From: an uncultured Clostridia bacterium
Lineage (GTDB): Bacteria; Bacillota; Clostridia; TANB77; CAG-508
Direction of reading: 5' to 3'
Length of the DNA: 64,000 nucleotides
Assembly (NCBI GenBank): GCA_947584805.1
Contig: CANPWU010000004.1
Location: forward strand, 13,098-77,097
Numbering within the stretch: the stretch's first letter is position 1; each line of letters opens with the position of its first letter. A program made the translations under genes and the position numbers. The notes beneath the pieces are model-generated. The model saw nothing but the letters and a program-made list of their open reading frames with translations, was not told where the DNA came from and made no database searches. This document shows, one piece after another, positions 51,375 through 59,975 of the stretch.

Positions 51375-51697
51375 ATGAAGATATGGAATATAACAATTCA
51401 TTAGATGATATAGAATCAAGAGTCGCTTGTTCTTGTATGCATGAAAATGAAGATACACGTGAAGAATTAATACACCAAATAAAATGCTATAATTTTGCAA
51501 TAATTGAACTTGGATTATATTTAGATACTCACCCAAATGATGAAAGAGCTCTTTGCTTGCATAATAGTTATTGCAAAACTTATAAAGATCTAAAGGATAA
51601 ATATCAAAAAGTATATGGCCCACTTACAATATATTATCCTTGCAACAAATGGCGCTGGCTTGAAGAACCATGGCCATGGGAAGGAGGTAATTTCTAA
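51371..51697 (+). CDS. cotJB: Spore coat protein CotJB
   Basis: CotJB family residues (YNFAIIELGLYLDTHPND). Confidence 0.7.
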   Translation: MNEDMEYNNSLDDIESRVACSCMHENEDTREELIHQIKCYNFAIIELGLYLDTHPNDERALCLHNSYCKTYKDLKDKYQKVYGPLTIYYPCNKWRWLEEPWPWEGGNF

Positions 51698-51891
51698 TGT
51701 GGACTTATGATAAGATTTTGGAATATCCAATAAATATAAAAGAAACAAATACAGAACTTGCTAAAGTAATTATATCTCAATATGGTGGACCAGATGGAGA
51801 GCTTGCAGCTTCACTTAGATATTTATCTCAAAAATTTGGTATGCCAGACCAAAAAGCAAAAGCAATATTAAATGATATTGGTACAGAAGAA
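51697..51891 (+). CDS. cotJC: CotJC (Mn-catalase-family spore coat protein), 5' portion only (aa 1-65). It is split by the intervening element.
   Basis: MWTYDKILEYP...QYGGPDGELAASLRYL...DIGTEE matches the CotJC N-terminus. The reading frame then hits TGA inside the element. Confidence 0.75.
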
Positions 51892-51897
51892 TGAGAT

Positions 51898-51911
51898 CCA
51901 AAATGTTATCA
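51898..51911. repeat. Left terminal inverted repeat of the cotJC-intervening element
   Basis: CCAAAAtgTTATCA, versus the reverse complement of the right end CCAAAAccTTATCA (12/14 match). Confidence 0.6.
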
Positions 51912-52010
51912 ATAAGATTATTTATTATAAATAAATTTTCCTAAAATATTATTGACTTTTTTCTGTATTTATTATAATTTAATAGTAGAAGATAGAAAGG
52001 ATAAAAATCA

Positions 52011-52356
52011 AATGATACAAGAATTTTATAAAAAAATAAATGGAAATTATGAAGTAGCAATTTCAAGAATGCAAAATGATGAAAGAATAAAAAAATATCT
52101 TAACTTTTTTCTAATGGATGAGTCATACAAAAGCCTAGAAGAAGGTATGAATTCTAATGATTGTGAAATGGCATTTAGAGGTGCACATACTTTAAAAGGA
52201 GTTTGCCAAAATATGGCATTTACATATCTTAGTACAATTGTAGAACAAATAACAGAAGAATTAAGAGCAAAAGATATTGAAAAAGCAAAATTAACTTTTA
52301 AGAAAGTAAAAGAAGAATATGAAAAAGTAATTGAAGAAATTCATAAAATTATGTAA
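52011..52356 (+). CDS. Hpt (histidine phosphotransfer) domain protein. The likely start is MIQEFYKK.
   Basis: 'RGAHTLKGVCQNM' contains the Hpt His motif (HxxKG). 115-134 aa. Confidence 0.55.
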
Positions 52357-52405
52357 AAATCAATTTGATAATAAGTATAAAAAATAAAAATGAAGGGAAG
52401 TTTTT

Positions 52406-57618: not shown

Positions 57619-57756
57619 TGCAGGTTGTTAAAGAATATGTTAAAGATAGAACAAAAATAAGAATACACGATGATTATATAACCAAAGAAAGTAAAGAAAC
57701 TAAAGAGCTAATAGTAAATTTAGTTATAGATTATTTAAAAAATAAGAATAATTAAT
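57619..57756 (+). CDS. Small 45-aa ORF with RBS GAGGTG, immediately upstream of the recombinase. It is a candidate recombination directionality factor or regulator.
   Basis: MQVVKEYVKDRTKIRIHDDYITKESKETKELIVNLVIDYLKNKNN. It is below the 60-aa cutoff of the ORF track. Confidence 0.25.
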
Positions 57757-57823
57757 TGCTTAAATTTCTTAAACATATTAAAATTGGGATACGCTTATAA
57801 AAAGCAATAAGAGGGGAGTTAAC

Positions 57824-59422
57824 TTGAATAATATACATATTGGATATTCTAATGGTGTGAATGTTGATATTACTAACGGAGAATATTCTTTATATTTAAG
57901 AAAATCAAGAGCTGATTTAGAGGAAGAAGAAAGAGGAAAAGGTGAAACTTTAGCAAGACATGAAAAAATGTTGAAGGAATTAGCTAAAAAATATGGCTTT
58001 TCTATTGGTAAAATTTATAGGGAAATTGTAAGTGGAGAAAGTATAGAAGCAAGACCTGTTGTCCAACAATTATTAAGAGATGTAGAATCAGGAAGATGGA
58101 AAGGAGTTTTAGTTGTAGAGGTTGAAAGACTTGCTCGTGGAGATACAATGGATCAAGGTCGAGTTGCGAAAAGTTTTAAATTTTCTAATACTAAAATTAT
58201 AACACCAATAAAAATTTATGATCCAAATGATGAATTTGATGAAGAATATTTTGAATTTGGATTATTTATGTCCAGAAGAGAATACAAGACTATAAATAGA
58301 AGATTACAAAGAGGTAGGCTATCTTCTGTAAAAGAAGGTAAATTTGTTGGAAGTGTTGCACCATTTGGTTATGACAAAATAAAAATAAAAAGTGATAAAG
58401 GTTTTTCTTTAACAAAGAATAGTGAGGCAAAAATAGTAGAAAAAATTTTCAATTTGTATGCCTATAATGATATTGCAATAAATGAGGTAGTTAGACAATT
58501 GAATTTAGGTGGTTTTAAGCCAAGAAAAACAGATGAATGGACAAATTCGGCAGTAAAAGATATATTAAGCAATCCTGTATATATAGGTAAAATCAGATGG
58601 GATGCCAGGAAGATAGTAAAAGAATACAAAAATGGAAAAATTGTTAATACAAGACCAAGAAATTCTAATTATGTTCTTTACGATGGATTACATGAAGCAA
58701 TAGTTGATTTAGATACATGGAATATTGTTCAAGAAAAAAGAAGTAAACATATACCAGCAGTAGTACATAATAAAGCTATTCAAAATCCTTTAGTTGGAAT
58801 TGTATATTGTAGAAAGTGTGGAAAATTGATGCAAAGACGACCATATAATGCAAAAGGATTGGAACCCACCCTTATATGTTCTAACAAAAATTGTGATAAT
58901 ATTAGTTCTAAACTTTGTATTGTTGAAGAAAAAGTTATTTTATCTTTAAAGGAATGGTTAAAAGACTATCATATTGATTATGATGAATATGCAAAAAAAG
59001 TTGAAGATAAAAAGAAAAGCAATTGCAAAGAAAGTATTACAAATTTAGAAAAAGAATTGGAAACACAAAATAAAAAACTAACAAATGTTTATGATTACTT
59101 CGAAGAAGGAATATATACAAAGGAAATGTTCTCTGAAAGATGTCAGTTAATATCTACTACAATTACGAATATAAAGCTTAATATTGAAGAATTAAAAAAA
59201 CAAATTGAATTAGAAAATAAAAAAGATGAAGAAAAAAAAGCAATTATTCAAAAGCCCGAAAATATACTTGATTTATACTATAATTTGCAAACAGCAGAGG
59301 AAAAAAATATTTTATTAAAGACAATTGTTAAAAGAGTGGAATATCTTAAAACTGAAAAATCAATAAAAAGGGGAGCAGATCCGACAAATTTTGAATTAGA
59401 TATTTATCCTAATATAGGATAA
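57824..59422 (+). CDS. Large serine recombinase (SpoIVCA/CisA-like): resolvase catalytic domain, recombinase domain, zinc ribbon and coiled coil
   Basis: N-terminal YLRKS (Y-x-R-x-S nucleophile motif). VVEVERLARGD. CRKCGK...CSNKNC zinc ribbon. 532 aa, ending 40 bp before the element's right junction. Confidence 0.8.
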   Translation: MNNIHIGYSNGVNVDITNGEYSLYLRKSRADLEEEERGKGETLARHEKMLKELAKKYGFSIGKIYREIVSGESIEARPVVQQLLRDVESGRWKGVLVVEVERLARGDTMDQGRVAKSFKFSNTKIITPIKIYDPNDEFDEEYFEFGLFMSRREYKTINRRLQRGRLSSVKEGKFVGSVAPFGYDKIKIKSDKGFSLTKNSEAKIVEKIFNLYAYNDIAINEVVRQLNLGGFKPRKTDEWTNSAVKDILSNPVYIGKIRWDARKIVKEYKNGKIVNTRPRNSNYVLYDGLHEAIVDLDTWNIVQEKRSKHIPAVVHNKAIQNPLVGIVYCRKCGKLMQRRPYNAKGLEPTLICSNKNCDNISSKLCIVEEKVILSLKEWLKDYHIDYDEYAKKVEDKKKSNCKESITNLEKELETQNKKLTNVYDYFEEGIYTKEMFSERCQLISTTITNIKLNIEELKKQIELENKKDEEKKAIIQKPENILDLYYNLQTAEEKNILLKTIVKRVEYLKTEKSIKRGADPTNFELDIYPNIG

Positions 59423-59441
59423 TTTATTTATAAAATTTTTT

Positions 59442-59455
59442 TGATAAGGTTTTGG
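59442..59455. repeat. Right terminal inverted repeat of the cotJC-intervening element
   Basis: tgataaggttttgg. Its reverse complement matches the left IR 12/14. Confidence 0.6.
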
Positions 59456-59462
59456 TTATTAC

Positions 59463-59975
59463 GAATTAGCACACCTTGAAATGGTAGGTACAATAGTACA
59501 CCAATTAACAAGAAATGCGTCAATTGAAGAAGTTGAAAGAGGAGGACTTTCACCATATTATACAGACCATGCACTTGGTGTTTATCCTCAGTCTGCAGGA
59601 GGAACACCATTTACTGCTGCATATATTGCAGTCAAAGGTGAACCAATTGCTGATTTACAAGAAGATCTTGCTGCAGAACAAAAAGCTAGAGTAACTTATG
59701 AAACTTTAATTGACTTATGTAGAGACCATCCAGATGTTGTAGATCCGCTTAAATTTTTAAGAGAAAGAGAAGTTGTTCACTTCCAAAGATTCGGAGAAGC
59801 ATTAAGAGGAGTTCAAGACAAACTTGCACAAAAGAAATTTTATATGAATTCTGATAGCCCAATGTTTGTCAATAACAACCAAATGCCAGTAAATACTAAT
59901 AACATGAATAATAATAACAATATGAATATGCAAAATTATTCAATGAATAATGGCTGTGGCTGTAATAGAAGATAA
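59463..59975 (+). CDS. cotJC: CotJC 3' portion (aa ~66-end), with an Asn/Met-rich C-terminal tail ending GCGCNRR
   Basis: The in-frame sequence ELAHLEMVGTIVHQLT...FTAAYIAVKGEPIADLQEDLAAEQKARVTYE...LREREVVHFQRFGEA matches the CotJC/Mn-catalase family. Confidence 0.75.
   Translation, partial: ELAHLEMVGTIVHQLTRNASIEEVERGGLSPYYTDHALGVYPQSAGGTPFTAAYIAVKGEPIADLQEDLAAEQKARVTYETLIDLCRDHPDVVDPLKFLREREVVHFQRFGEALRGVQDKLAQKKFYMNSDSPMFVNNNQMPVNTNNMNNNNNMNMQNYSMNNGCGCNRR

What the first reader, a model, noticed from the sequence alone, without database searches (positions are those of the whole stretch)
51697..59975. cotJC spore-coat gene split by a 7.6-kb serine-recombinase element
Seen directly in the sequence:
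- CotJC residues 1-65 (…DIGTEE) end at 51891, and the frame then runs into TGA.
- The rest of CotJC (…LAHLEMVGTIVHQLT…FLREREVVHFQRFGEA…) resumes in-frame at 59463.
- The intervening 7.57 kb ends with a 532-aa large serine recombinase gene (57824-59422), 40 bp from the right junction.

This is the architecture of developmentally excised intervening elements in sporulation genes, such as the skin element in sigK and SPbeta in spsM. I do not recall cotJC among the established targets, so this may be an undescribed instance. The gene would be reconstituted only where the recombinase acts, presumably the mother cell.
Basis: partly seen in the sequence, partly recalled or inferred. Interest (0 to 1): 0.9.

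Follow-up and report, generated by a model that had tools for sequence, protein, structure and literature searches.

The report
Mobile element splitting spore-coat gene cotJC
A 7.6-kb non-viral mobile element carrying its own serine recombinase sits exactly inside the spore-coat gene cotJC and can be cut out precisely to restore it; this is a real but already known kind of "gene-interrupting" element, and I show it belongs to a large, previously little-noticed family in gut Clostridia and their phages.

Summary
cotJC is split after codon 65 (51891) and resumes at 59466. A shared GAA (51889-91 / 59463-65) means excision removes 7,574 bp and gives a 234-aa CotJC. That protein aligns gap-free with intact orthologues that sit in the same pyk-rpmF-cotJA-cotJB-cotJC context. 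The insert ends with a 532-aa large serine recombinase, whose closest solved homologue is SPβ SprA.

Seventy-one of the 80 best-matching recombinase loci from species-representative genomes lie next to a cotJC fragment broken at the same codon. Related ~45-kb phage contigs occur both free, with an intact attP, and integrated in cotJC. Only two genes are shared across elements: the recombinase and a ~45-aa ORF just upstream, a candidate directionality factor. That ORF has a σE/σK-type CATA box at −25 in 44 of 49 relatives, but not in this copy.

The "skin/SPβ-like" interpretation is therefore well supported by analogy and comparison. Mother-cell-specific excision remains unproven.

The claim that cotJC is an undescribed target is wrong: Abe 2013 (as cited) and Galperin 2022 list cotJC interruptions.

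Verdict: a new member of a known kind, with non-phage signalling cargo. Interest is moderate.

The parts
50967..50994 (+). σK-type promoter-like sequence of the cotJ operon (CAC-N16-CATAACATA), about 30 nt upstream of cotJA
   Evidence: Sequence read. It matches the -35 AC / -10 CATA... layout reported for σK in C. difficile (PMC3789822). This is a consensus match only.
51027..51374 (+). cotJA
   Evidence: Pfam PF11007 CotJA, E=9e-12.
51371..51697 (+). cotJB (intact, 108 aa)
   Evidence: Pfam PF12652 CotJB, E=8e-27.
51697..51894 (+). cotJC 5' fragment: codons 1-65 (to 51891), then TGA supplied by the element arm
   Evidence: Pfam Mn_catalase profile positions 1-66.
51889..51912 (+). attL inner part: shared core GAA(T) at 51889-51892 followed by the P' arm TGAGATCCAAAATGTTATCAA
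   Evidence: The arm matches the family consensus and is the inverted repeat of the arm at 59441-59462.
51892..59465 (+). The intervening element: 7,574 bp, 27.5% G+C against 28.6% for the window. Removing it joins ...GAAGAA to TTAGCACAC...
51952..52356 (+). Cargo: Hpt phosphotransfer protein
   Evidence: Pfam PF01627.
52406..53494 (+). Cargo: response regulator with an HD-GYP-type HD domain
   Evidence: Pfam Response_reg + HD_5. Sub-threshold NCBIfam match to a c-di-GMP phosphodiesterase response regulator.
53498..56125 (+). Cargo: hybrid sensor histidine kinase (Cache-like sensor, HisKA, HATPase, two REC domains)
   Evidence: Pfam. TorS/LuxQ/BarA-like by NCBIfam, below the cut-offs.
56152..57507 (+). 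Cargo: extracellular solute-binding protein
   Evidence: Pfam SBP_bac_1.
57538..57568 (+). Hairpin plus T-run (terminator-like) after the cargo genes
   Evidence: Read. It is conserved in L169. The generic terminator scan did not call it because the stem is A+T-rich.
57569..57598 (+). Degenerate σE-like promoter region: GAATATA-N14-AATAACTAT. Relatives have CATAT(T/C)TAT at the -10 position.
   Evidence: Alignment of the subfamily. The CATA box is present at -29..-21 in 44 of 49 relatives and absent here.
57618..57755 (+). Conserved 45-aa ORF, the candidate recombination directionality factor
   Evidence: Member of the only gene family, besides the recombinase, shared by the elements: 26 of 31 two-ended elements plus the window, and 51 loci overall. 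No Pfam, PHROG or PDB match.
57756..57784 (+). σA-like promoter candidate for the recombinase (TTGCTT-N17-TAAAAT)
   Evidence: Conserved as TTGTAA-N17-TAAAAT in relatives. Weak in this copy, and it does not pass the generic scan.
57824..59422 (+). Large serine recombinase, 532 aa, TTG start. Catalytic Ser28 in YLRKSR; Cys329/332/352/357 form the zinc ribbon.
   Evidence: Pfam. PHROG 95 integrase, E=1e-85. SprA/YokA of SPβ, E=8e-49 over residues 23-525. Invariant residues in A1.
59441..59466 (+). attR inner part: P arm TTGATAAGGTTTTGGTTATTAC followed by the core GAA(T) at 59463-59466
59466..59975 (+). cotJC 3' fragment: codons 66-234 plus the stop
   Evidence: Pfam Mn_catalase profile positions 66-198.

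Best explanation
The 7,574-bp segment 51892-59465 is a non-phage integrative element.

How it got there. Its large serine recombinase inserted it into cotJC by attP x attB recombination at a GA/AA dinucleotide within the GAA codon of Glu65. This codon is the first residue of the E-x-x-H motif of the Mn-catalase fold.

Integrated state. cotJC is cut into a 65-aa stub and a 169-codon promoterless remainder, so no functional CotJC can be made.

Excision. The recombinase probably acts together with the conserved 45-aa protein encoded just upstream, which would serve as a recombination directionality factor. Recombining attL with attR excises the element as a circle and restores an intact 234-aa cotJC behind the σK-type cotJ promoter.

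By analogy with skin, SPβ and gin, and because most relatives carry a σE/σK-type -10 box in front of the small ORF, the most likely setting for excision is the terminally differentiating mother cell. The forespore genome would keep the element and its cargo, a complete SBP / hybrid kinase / Hpt / HD-GYP phosphorelay.

Shown here:
- the exact split and in-silico reconstitution;
- the recombinase class;
- att-site anatomy;
- family-wide site specificity;
- free and integrated phage relatives.

Inferred:
- the RDF role of the small ORF;
- the timing and cell type of excision;
- whether this particular copy is still regulated.
For: Split and reconstitution:
- The halves abut exactly.
- The joined protein aligns gap-free with intact orthologues and with solved Mn catalases.
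- An uninterrupted cotJC sits in the same pyk-rpmF-cotJA-cotJB context in relatives.

Recombinase:
- It has Resolvase, Recombinase and Zn-ribbon domains.
- It is full-length homologous to SprA of SPβ, with an invariant catalytic Ser/Arg set and four Cys.

Family-wide site specificity:
- 71 of the 80 best-matching recombinase loci in genome contigs (45-86% identity, many Clostridia lineages) lie beside a cotJC fragment broken at residues 61-67.

att sites:
- attL and attR share only GAA across the family.
- The reconstructed attP is a 44-46-bp imperfect palindrome whose axis falls on G|A.
- IMG/VR phage contigs of the same clade carry exactly such an attP after the recombinase stop, and the same phages occur fused to cotJC-C at GAA.

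Candidate RDF:
- The only genes shared by 31 complete elements are the recombinase and the ~45-aa ORF directly upstream.
- Proven RDFs of sporulation elements are similarly small and motif-less: GirX is 42 aa (PMC5595907) and CD1234 is 72 aa (PMC5025042).
- A CATA box lies 21-29 nt upstream of the small ORF in 44 of 49 relatives, against 4.9 expected. This matches the shared σE/σK -10 (PMC3789822).

Target gene:
- There is a σK-type promoter-like sequence upstream of cotJA.
- cotJ-like operons are σK-dependent in C. difficile.
- 22 of 31 interrupted cotJC genes rejoin to intact ORFs, and both fragments show dN/dS of about 0.1.
Against: - There is no direct evidence of excision. No reconstituted cotJC of this strain is among 5.8 billion clustered proteins (best full-length hit 92%). 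No free-circle attP junction was found: one metagenome hit, L169, proved to be an integrated element, and IMG/VR gave none.
- In this copy the conserved C of the CATA box before the small ORF is an A (AATAACTAT), and the σA-like -35 before the recombinase is weak.
- The elements do not co-diverge with their hosts (Mantel r=0.13, p about 0.19). The low dN/dS may therefore largely pre-date insertion.
- CotJC-type catalases are reported as dispensable for coat formation in C. difficile (PMC11222575), so permanent inactivation could be tolerated.
- The small ORF has no detectable similarity to SprB or any known RDF.
Confidence: 0.6

Rival explanations
1. Safe-harbour mobile element without developmental control. 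The element, like its phage relatives, uses the ultra-conserved GAA/ExxH region of cotJC simply as a reliable attB. cotJC is knocked out in carriers. Excision happens only sporadically, or on signals for transfer or induction, and restoring cotJC is a by-product, not a programmed step.
For: - The elements are horizontally mobile and do not co-diverge with cotJC.
- L003 appears to carry the same element (99.88% identity) on a different cotJC allele.
- True ~45-kb phages use the same site.
- The window copy lacks the CATA box.
- CotJC-like catalases are reported as non-essential for the coat (PMC11222575).
- Three of 31 interrupted genes show frameshifts in the N fragment.
Against: - The position-specific CATA box (σE/σK-type -10) in front of the small ORF in 44 of 49 relatives is hard to explain without sporulation-linked expression.
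- Every experimentally studied serine-recombinase element inside a mother-cell gene has proved to be developmentally excised: skin, SPβ, vfbin, vrin and gin (PMC4191935; PMC5595907; PMC5025042).
- Most interrupted cotJC genes remain intact.
Confidence: 0.3
2. Immobilised relic. The element can no longer excise, and cotJC is a permanent pseudogene in this lineage.
For: - The promoter box of the small ORF is degenerate in this copy.
- An unrelated frameshifted gene (galE) nearby shows that this genome tolerates pseudogenes.
Against: - The recombinase ORF is full length with all invariant catalytic and zinc-ribbon residues.
- The small ORF is intact and 65-74% identical to relatives.
- Both att arms match the family consensus.
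- Both cotJC halves are free of stops or frameshifts and 82-87% identical to intact orthologues.
- Element sequence is about 99.9-100% identical across three metagenome samples.
Confidence: 0.08
3. Assembly or binning artefact: a chimeric join placed a foreign segment inside cotJC.
For: The sequence comes from metagenome-type data, and one related contig (L003) shows a mosaic pattern.
Against: - The right junction is identical in three independent assemblies.
- Both junctions fall on the same 3-nt core, with matching inverted-repeat arms.
- The same architecture recurs in about 70 other genomes.
Confidence: 0.01

Closest known systems
SPβ prophage in spsM of Bacillus subtilis (SprA integrase + SprB RDF)
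   Same: - The recombinase is full-length homologous to SprA (E=8e-49).
- The element lies inside a late mother-cell envelope gene.
[quoted passage not shown]
- Precise excision restores the ORF (PMC4191935, PMC5499854).
   Different: - SPβ is a 134-kb active phage, whereas this is a 7.6-kb element with no phage genes (only the integrase hits PHROGs).
- The target gene differs.
- The small ORF shows no similarity to SprB.
gin element in gerE of Bacillus cereus ATCC 10987 (GirC + 42-aa GirX)
   Same: - It is a non-prophage gene-intervening element.
- A serine recombinase works with a tiny motif-less RDF that was identified by conservation.
- The target is a mother-cell late gene (PMC5595907).
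   Different: - gin is 28.6 kb with three recombinase genes, and its target is gerE.
- The present family is found in Clostridia and carries different cargo.
- Excision of gin was shown experimentally; here it was not.
skin elements in sigK (B. subtilis SpoIVCA; C. difficile CD1231 + CD1234)
   Same: - The recombinase is always at the element edge.
- Orientation relative to the split gene is variable, and no other genes are shared between elements (Galperin 2022).
- In C. difficile a constitutive recombinase is paired with a σE-controlled RDF. The promoter layout in most relatives here (σA-like before the recombinase, CATA box before the small ORF) mirrors that arrangement.
   Different: The target is a structural coat gene, not a sigma factor, so excision is unlikely to act as a developmental timer for a whole regulon.
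Previously listed cotJC interruptions (Abe et al. 2013, Mol Microbiol 90:415, as cited; skin-like element in cotJC of Laceyella sacchari, Galperin et al. 2022)
   Same: The same target gene is interrupted by a recombinase-bearing element.
   Different: - Those are brief bioinformatic mentions, in Bacilli for Laceyella.
- I could not retrieve their sequences, so I do not know whether the site and recombinase clade are the same.
- In the library searched I found no description of the gut-Clostridia family, its att sites or its small ORF.
fdxN element of Anabaena (XisF), excised in heterocysts
   Same: A large serine recombinase excises an element from a gene needed only in a terminally differentiated cell. 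There is a sub-threshold NCBIfam match to XisF (E=4e-26, 92 bits against a cut-off of 375).
   Different: The phylum, developmental programme and accessory factors (XisH/XisI) all differ. It is not an orthologue.

Membership tests
Large serine recombinases (phage-type serine integrases) | N-terminal resolvase catalytic domain with a nucleophilic serine | tested here: met
   Pfam PF00239, E=7e-14. Ser28 in YLRKSR aligns with YLRRSR of SprA. It is invariant in 12 relatives.
Large serine recombinases (phage-type serine integrases) | C-terminal recombinase domain plus a zinc-ribbon domain | tested here: met
   PF07508, E=5e-21. PF13408 scores 22 bits, just under its 25.3 cut-off. The four Cys (329, 332, 352, 357) are invariant. 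The alignment to SprA runs to residue 525.
Large serine recombinases (phage-type serine integrases) | Short (~40-50 bp) imperfectly palindromic attP, with attB sharing only a central dinucleotide | tested here: met
   The reconstructed attP is TTGATAAGGTTTTGGTTATTACGAATGAGATCCAAAATGTTATCAA. The identity shared across the family reduces to GAA. The same kind of attP is seen intact in free phage contigs. The exact 2-bp crossover (GA or AA) is inferred.
Large serine recombinases (phage-type serine integrases) | Excision requires a separate recombination directionality factor | tested here: inconclusive
   A conserved 45-aa ORF lies directly upstream and is a candidate by position and conservation only. 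It has no similarity to known RDFs.
Sporulation-gene intervening elements (skin / SPβ / vfbin / vrin / gin class) | Inserted within the coding frame of a mother-cell-expressed sporulation gene | tested here: met
   The cotJA-cotJB-cotJC operon is identified by Pfam. It has a σK-type promoter-like sequence. cotJ-like operons are σK-dependent in C. difficile.
Sporulation-gene intervening elements (skin / SPβ / vfbin / vrin / gin class) | Precise excision restores an intact, functional-looking ORF | tested here: met
   The in-silico join gives a 234-aa protein that aligns gap-free with intact orthologues and with solved Mn catalases.
Sporulation-gene intervening elements (skin / SPβ / vfbin / vrin / gin class) | Element-encoded serine recombinase at the element edge | tested here: met
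   The recombinase stop lies 40 nt from the junction. The same holds across the family.
Sporulation-gene intervening elements (skin / SPβ / vfbin / vrin / gin class) | Excision occurs during sporulation, in the mother cell, producing a circle | not testable with these tools
   There is indirect support only. A σE/σK-type CATA box precedes the small ORF in 44 of 49 relatives but not in this copy. No circle junction was found.
Prophage / defective prophage | Phage structural, packaging, lysis or lysogeny-control genes | tested here: not met
   Of the five element proteins scanned (small ORF, recombinase, Hpt, SBP, plus a relative's small ORF), only the integrase matches PHROGs. The cargo consists of signalling proteins. 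Sibling elements carry TA, Abi-like and surface proteins. More distant clade members at about 48% identity are true ~45-kb phages.
CotJC / Mn-catalase family (PF05067) | Continuous match to the family profile, including the E-x-x-H metal motif, in a cotJA-cotJB-cotJC operon | tested here: met
   The Pfam halves meet at profile position 66. There is a continuous alignment to 4r42/1jku through DIGTEELAHLEMVG. The operon context is confirmed. That E65/H68 are metal ligands rests on my recollection of the L. plantarum structure and was not tested.

The most novel reading that the evidence does not exclude
The cotJ operon of gut Clostridia may be a multi-site landing pad for several unrelated serine-recombinase elements. 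The sites are codon 65, about codons 100, 119 and 135 of cotJC, and the 3' end of cotJB. In some genomes the coat gene is in three pieces and would need two or three independent, coordinated excisions in the mother cell. That would be a sporulation counterpart of the nifD/fdxN/hupL rearrangements of Anabaena heterocysts.

The codon-65 family also switches insertion orientation repeatedly by inverting the polar centre of a near-palindromic attP. These mini-elements would serve as "germline-only" carriers of defence and signalling cargo.

I found none of this described in the literature I could search.
Probability: 0.3. Interest if true: 0.65.

Novelty: new member of a known kind. Interest (0 to 1): 0.45.

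Why it matters
If excision is developmentally controlled, this adds a structural coat gene of anaerobic gut spore-formers to the short list of genes rebuilt by programmed DNA rearrangement. Almost all mechanistic work so far comes from Bacillus and C. difficile.

The family-level picture has practical uses.
- It explains a recurrent annotation error: cotJC called as two pseudogene fragments in many Clostridia MAGs.
- It provides dozens of natural attP/attB pairs, plus a candidate minimal 45-aa RDF, for a clade of serine integrases related to SprA. That may interest genome engineers.
- It suggests that small non-viral cargo carriers (toxin-antitoxin and Abi-like genes, a phosphorelay) ride in the forespore lineage at no cost to spore quality.

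It does not change the concept, which was established for sigK, spsM, spoVFB, spoVR and gerE.

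Tried and rejected
- **Naive join.** Joining 51891 to 59463 gives three Glu in a row. I rejected it in favour of a shared GAA core.
- **Palindromic crossover.** I considered a palindromic AT crossover (GA-AT-T) to explain the two insertion orientations. It is rejected because several elements have GAA|C at attR, so the shared core cannot include the T. Orientation differences are instead mirrored by attP sites with inverted centres in free phages.
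- **Circle junctions.** One metagenome hit (L169) turned out to be an integrated element that retains an unrecombined attP. Two IMG/VR scans were empty.
- **Post-insertion purifying selection.** The dN/dS values are low. The Mantel test shows no host-element co-divergence, so this argument is weak.
- **Generic promoter and terminator scan.** It is uninformative in 28% G+C DNA: 16 sites found against 13.4 expected.
- **Small ORF searches.** Pfam, PHROGs and PDB gave nothing. I did not attempt structure prediction of a 45-aa peptide or of a complex, because the tool folds single chains only.
- **Defence-system search of the cargo.** Only weak domain-level hits.
- **φ027 of C. difficile.** It is mentioned with a CotJC-like gene, but it lies upstream of cotG, not inside it.
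- **Abe et al. 2013.** The paper could not be read, so its cotJC cases are known to me only through a citing paper.

Full report
**1. Observation**

The window contains cotJA (51027-51374), cotJB (51371-51697) and an ORF starting at 51697. That ORF encodes 65 residues of CotJC ending DIGTEE and then meets TGA at 51892.

The rest of CotJC is open from 59463 to 59975.

Pfam Mn_catalase matches the first piece at profile positions 1-66 and the second at 66-198. The one-position overlap is a GAA present at both junctions (51889-51891 and 59463-59465). The deleted unit is therefore 51892-59465, which is 7,574 bp, and the rejoined gene encodes 234 aa.

This protein aligns without any gap across the invariant DIGTEELAHLEMVGT to intact CotJC proteins of 82-87% identity. 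It also aligns continuously to solved Mn catalases.

Relatives carry an uninterrupted cotJC in the same pyk-rpmF-cotJA-cotJB-cotJC context.

The right junction is reproduced in three independent metagenome assemblies.

Only the product length (234 aa, not 230) and the role of the duplicated GAA needed correction.

**2. What the insert is**

All genes of the insert are on the + strand:
- an Hpt protein;
- a REC-HD(GYP) response regulator;
- a Cache-type hybrid histidine kinase with two receiver domains;
- a solute-binding protein;
- a 45-aa ORF (57618-57755);
- a 532-aa large serine recombinase (57824-59422) ending 40 nt from the junction.

Of the element proteins scanned against PHROGs, only the integrase matches a phage family. 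Nothing matches a known defence system convincingly. So this is not a prophage.

The recombinase has the Resolvase, Recombinase and zinc-ribbon domains, Ser28 in YLRKSR, and four invariant cysteines. Its closest solved homologue, over residues 23-525, is SprA (YokA) of SPβ, the enzyme that rebuilds spsM during B. subtilis sporulation.

The element ends are inverted repeats: GATCCAAAATGTTATCAA on the left and TTGATAAGGTTTTGGTTA on the right. Joined, they form a 46-bp imperfect palindrome typical of a serine-integrase attP.

**3. Comparative evidence**

*Genomes.* A scan of one genome per species found 518 relatives of the recombinase. Of the best 80 (45-86% identity), 71 lie beside a cotJC fragment broken at residues 61-67. 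The hosts include many uncultured gut Clostridia, plus Caproiciproducens, Anaeromonas, Ruminococcus, Oscillibacter, Christensenellaceae and Thermoanaerobacterales.

*att sites.* Across 29 elements with both ends visible and usable coordinates, the only sequence always shared by attL and attR is GAA. The palindrome axis falls between G and A, which places the 2-bp crossover in codon 65.

*Phages.* IMG/VR holds hundreds more relatives at about 48% identity on ~45-kb phage contigs.
- Many show an intact attP immediately after the recombinase stop.
- The same phage lineage is also seen with that P arm fused to cotJC at GAA.
- This confirms both the attP reconstruction and the site specificity.
- The cultured Paenibacillus larvae phage phiIBB_Pl23 has an attP whose centre is the reverse complement of GGTACAGAAGAG, the GTEE codons.

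*Element content.* The window's subfamily and its neighbours are much smaller, 3.3-11 kb. They share only two genes: the recombinase and a ~45-aa ORF directly upstream on the same strand. Other cargo varies: ToxN, AAA_21+RloB, RhuM, sortase plus a surface protein, an ABC transporter and a hydrolase. The signalling cassette of the window is found in no other fetched locus.

**4. Mechanism**

*Integration.* A serine integrase integrates via attP x attB on its own. For excision it needs a recombination directionality factor. This is established for this enzyme class and shown for CD1231/CD1234, SprA/SprB and GirC/GirX.

*Candidate RDF.* The conserved 45-aa ORF is the obvious candidate. GirX is likewise a 42-aa protein without motifs that was found by conservation. 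There is no sequence similarity to SprB or anything else, so the assignment is inference.

*Promoter evidence in relatives.*
- In 44 of 49 non-identical relatives a CATA box starts 21-29 nt upstream of the small ORF (mode -25), against about 5 expected by chance.
- In the window's subfamily the layout is GAATATA-N13-CATAT(T/C)TAT.
- This matches the shared σE/σK -10 element with an ATA-type -35 described for C. difficile.
- Between the small ORF and the recombinase there is a conserved TTGTAA-N17-TAAAAT, which is σA-like.
- This mirrors the C. difficile skin logic: a constitutive recombinase plus an RDF restricted to the mother cell.

*Target gene.* The cotJ operon of the window has a σK-type AC-N16-CATAACATA sequence upstream of cotJA. 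This is consistent with late mother-cell expression of the rebuilt gene.

*Caveat for this copy.* In the window itself the CATA is AATA, and the σA-like -35 is weaker. Regulation of this particular copy is uncertain.

**5. Is the interrupted gene maintained?**

On precise joining, 22 of 31 two-ended loci give intact ORFs of 196-234 aa. Four more are explained by a second insertion elsewhere in cotJC. Three show a frameshift in the N fragment, one gives an unexplained early stop near codon 112 (L053), and one runs off its contig.

dN/dS between interrupted copies is about 0.10 for the N fragment and 0.14 for the C fragment.

However, recombinase and cotJC distances are uncorrelated (Mantel r=0.13, p about 0.19). 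One low-coverage contig (L003) appears to carry the same element (99.88% identity) on a different cotJC allele. The elements are therefore mobile, and the selection signal cannot be assigned to the period after insertion. I treat it as compatible with both the regulated-switch model and the safe-harbour model.

**6. Direct evidence of excision**

I did not find any.
- No reconstituted cotJC of this strain exists in the protein collection.
- The single metagenome hit to the predicted circle junction (L169) is an integrated element in the opposite orientation. It retains an unrecombined attP beside the recombinase and uses a second arm about 50 nt away.
- Viral-collection scans were empty.

**7. 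Comparison with what is known, and novelty**

The kind of system is well established: skin in sigK, SPβ in spsM, vfbin in spoVFB, vrin in spoVR and gin in gerE.

cotJC itself has already been listed as a target:
- Abe et al. 2013, as cited;
- a skin-like element in cotJC of Laceyella sacchari, in Galperin et al. 2022.

The latter paper also notes, for skin, a variable orientation, a recombinase always at the edge, and no other shared genes. The cotJC family shows the same pattern.

In the open-access library I found no experimental study of a cotJC element, and no description of this gut-Clostridia and phage family, its att sites or its small ORF. Absence from that library is not proof.

I therefore classify the finding as a new member of a known kind. 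The added value lies in the family-level picture, not in the single locus.

**8. Verdict**

- Observation: confirmed.
- Interpretation: partly supported. The architecture and the likely mechanism hold. The claim of an undescribed target does not. Mother-cell timing is unproven, and the promoter evidence is weakened in this copy.
- Confidence that this is a site-specific serine-recombinase element whose precise excision would restore cotJC: above 0.9.
- Confidence that excision is developmentally programmed for this copy: about 0.55-0.6.
- Interest: 0.45.

Noticed in passing
L004 11916-16135; L024 1610-5814; L030 4296-6983; L022, L035, L053, L007 (site near residue 100); L014, L034, L083 (near residue 135); L051 12865-16424 (near residue 119): cotJC is broken at further recurrent positions: at TATACAGAYCATGGGGT| near residue 100 in 7 loci, near residue 135 in 3 loci, and near residue 119 in 1 locus. 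Where the inserted DNA is visible (L004, L024, L030, L034, L035, L051), a serine recombinase only about 25% identical to the window's lies nearby. Some genomes therefore have cotJC in three pieces.
   Followed up: partly
L018 2971-11761; L019 10651-17181; L030 11991-17825; L042 11722-19853; L044 12461-19824: Another low-identity (~25%) serine recombinase lies between cotJB (truncated near residue 101 of 108) and the start of cotJC. This suggests a further intervening-element family at the 3' end of cotJB.
   Followed up: no
Family-wide (74 loci); free phage attPs e.g. L104 vs L099/L152/L163, about 15-60 nt after the recombinase stop: The element's orientation relative to cotJC is split 36 to 38, and it flips at least 11 times on the recombinase tree. 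Recombinases 91-92% identical occur in opposite orientations. Free phage attP sites occur with the central segment in either polarity (…CTGACGAACTGG… or …CCAGTTCGCTGG…) between near-identical outer arms.
   Followed up: partly
L169 940-1045 and L005 11921-12019: Two integrated elements keep a complete, unrecombined attP right after the recombinase gene, while a second P-type arm about 50 nt further on is the one fused to cotJC-N. The origin of this arrangement (nested or tandem integration, or module exchange) is unexplained.
   Followed up: partly
L003 3432-3600 compared with window 59486-59600; L002 position corresponding to window 59466: L003 is 99.88% identical to the window across 3,410 nt of element, but only about 70% identical for the ~115 nt of cotJC that start about 20 nt past the crossover, after which it is identical again. 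This is either the same element on another cotJC allele or a chimeric low-coverage contig. L002 differs from the window by a T-to-C change at the first base after the GAA core.
   Followed up: partly
window 51952-57507: The cargo forms a complete phosphorelay in one co-oriented block: a solute-binding protein, a Cache-type hybrid kinase (TorS/LuxQ/BarA-like), an Hpt protein and a REC-HD-GYP output. No + strand terminator-like site is called between the cotJC 5' fragment and this block, so it could be read through from the cotJ promoter.
   Followed up: partly
window 61155-62181 (frameshift near 61787): The galE-like UDP-glucose 4-epimerase gene is split into 222-aa and 101-aa ORFs by an apparent extra C (AGCCGGAG, where AGCGGAG would keep the frame VASGELEELSVYG). 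The same sequence is present in the independent assembly L001.
   Followed up: partly
L170 3090-3140 (Paenibacillus phage phiIBB_Pl23, KF010834.1): This published phage has a quasi-palindromic attP right after its integrase, with the centre TCTTCTGTACC. That is the reverse complement of the cotJC GTEE codons, which suggests that this Fernvirus phage also integrates into cotJC.
   Followed up: partly
Sibling elements, e.g. L008 (ToxN), L010 (AAA_21 + RloB), L020 (RhuM), L026 (sortase): Mini-elements of the same family carry toxin-antitoxin, abortive-infection-like and surface-protein cargo, and no phage genes.
   Followed up: partly
window 60954-61028: A single tRNA-Gln(CTG) lies about 1 kb downstream of cotJC. 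It is not associated with the element.
   Followed up: yes
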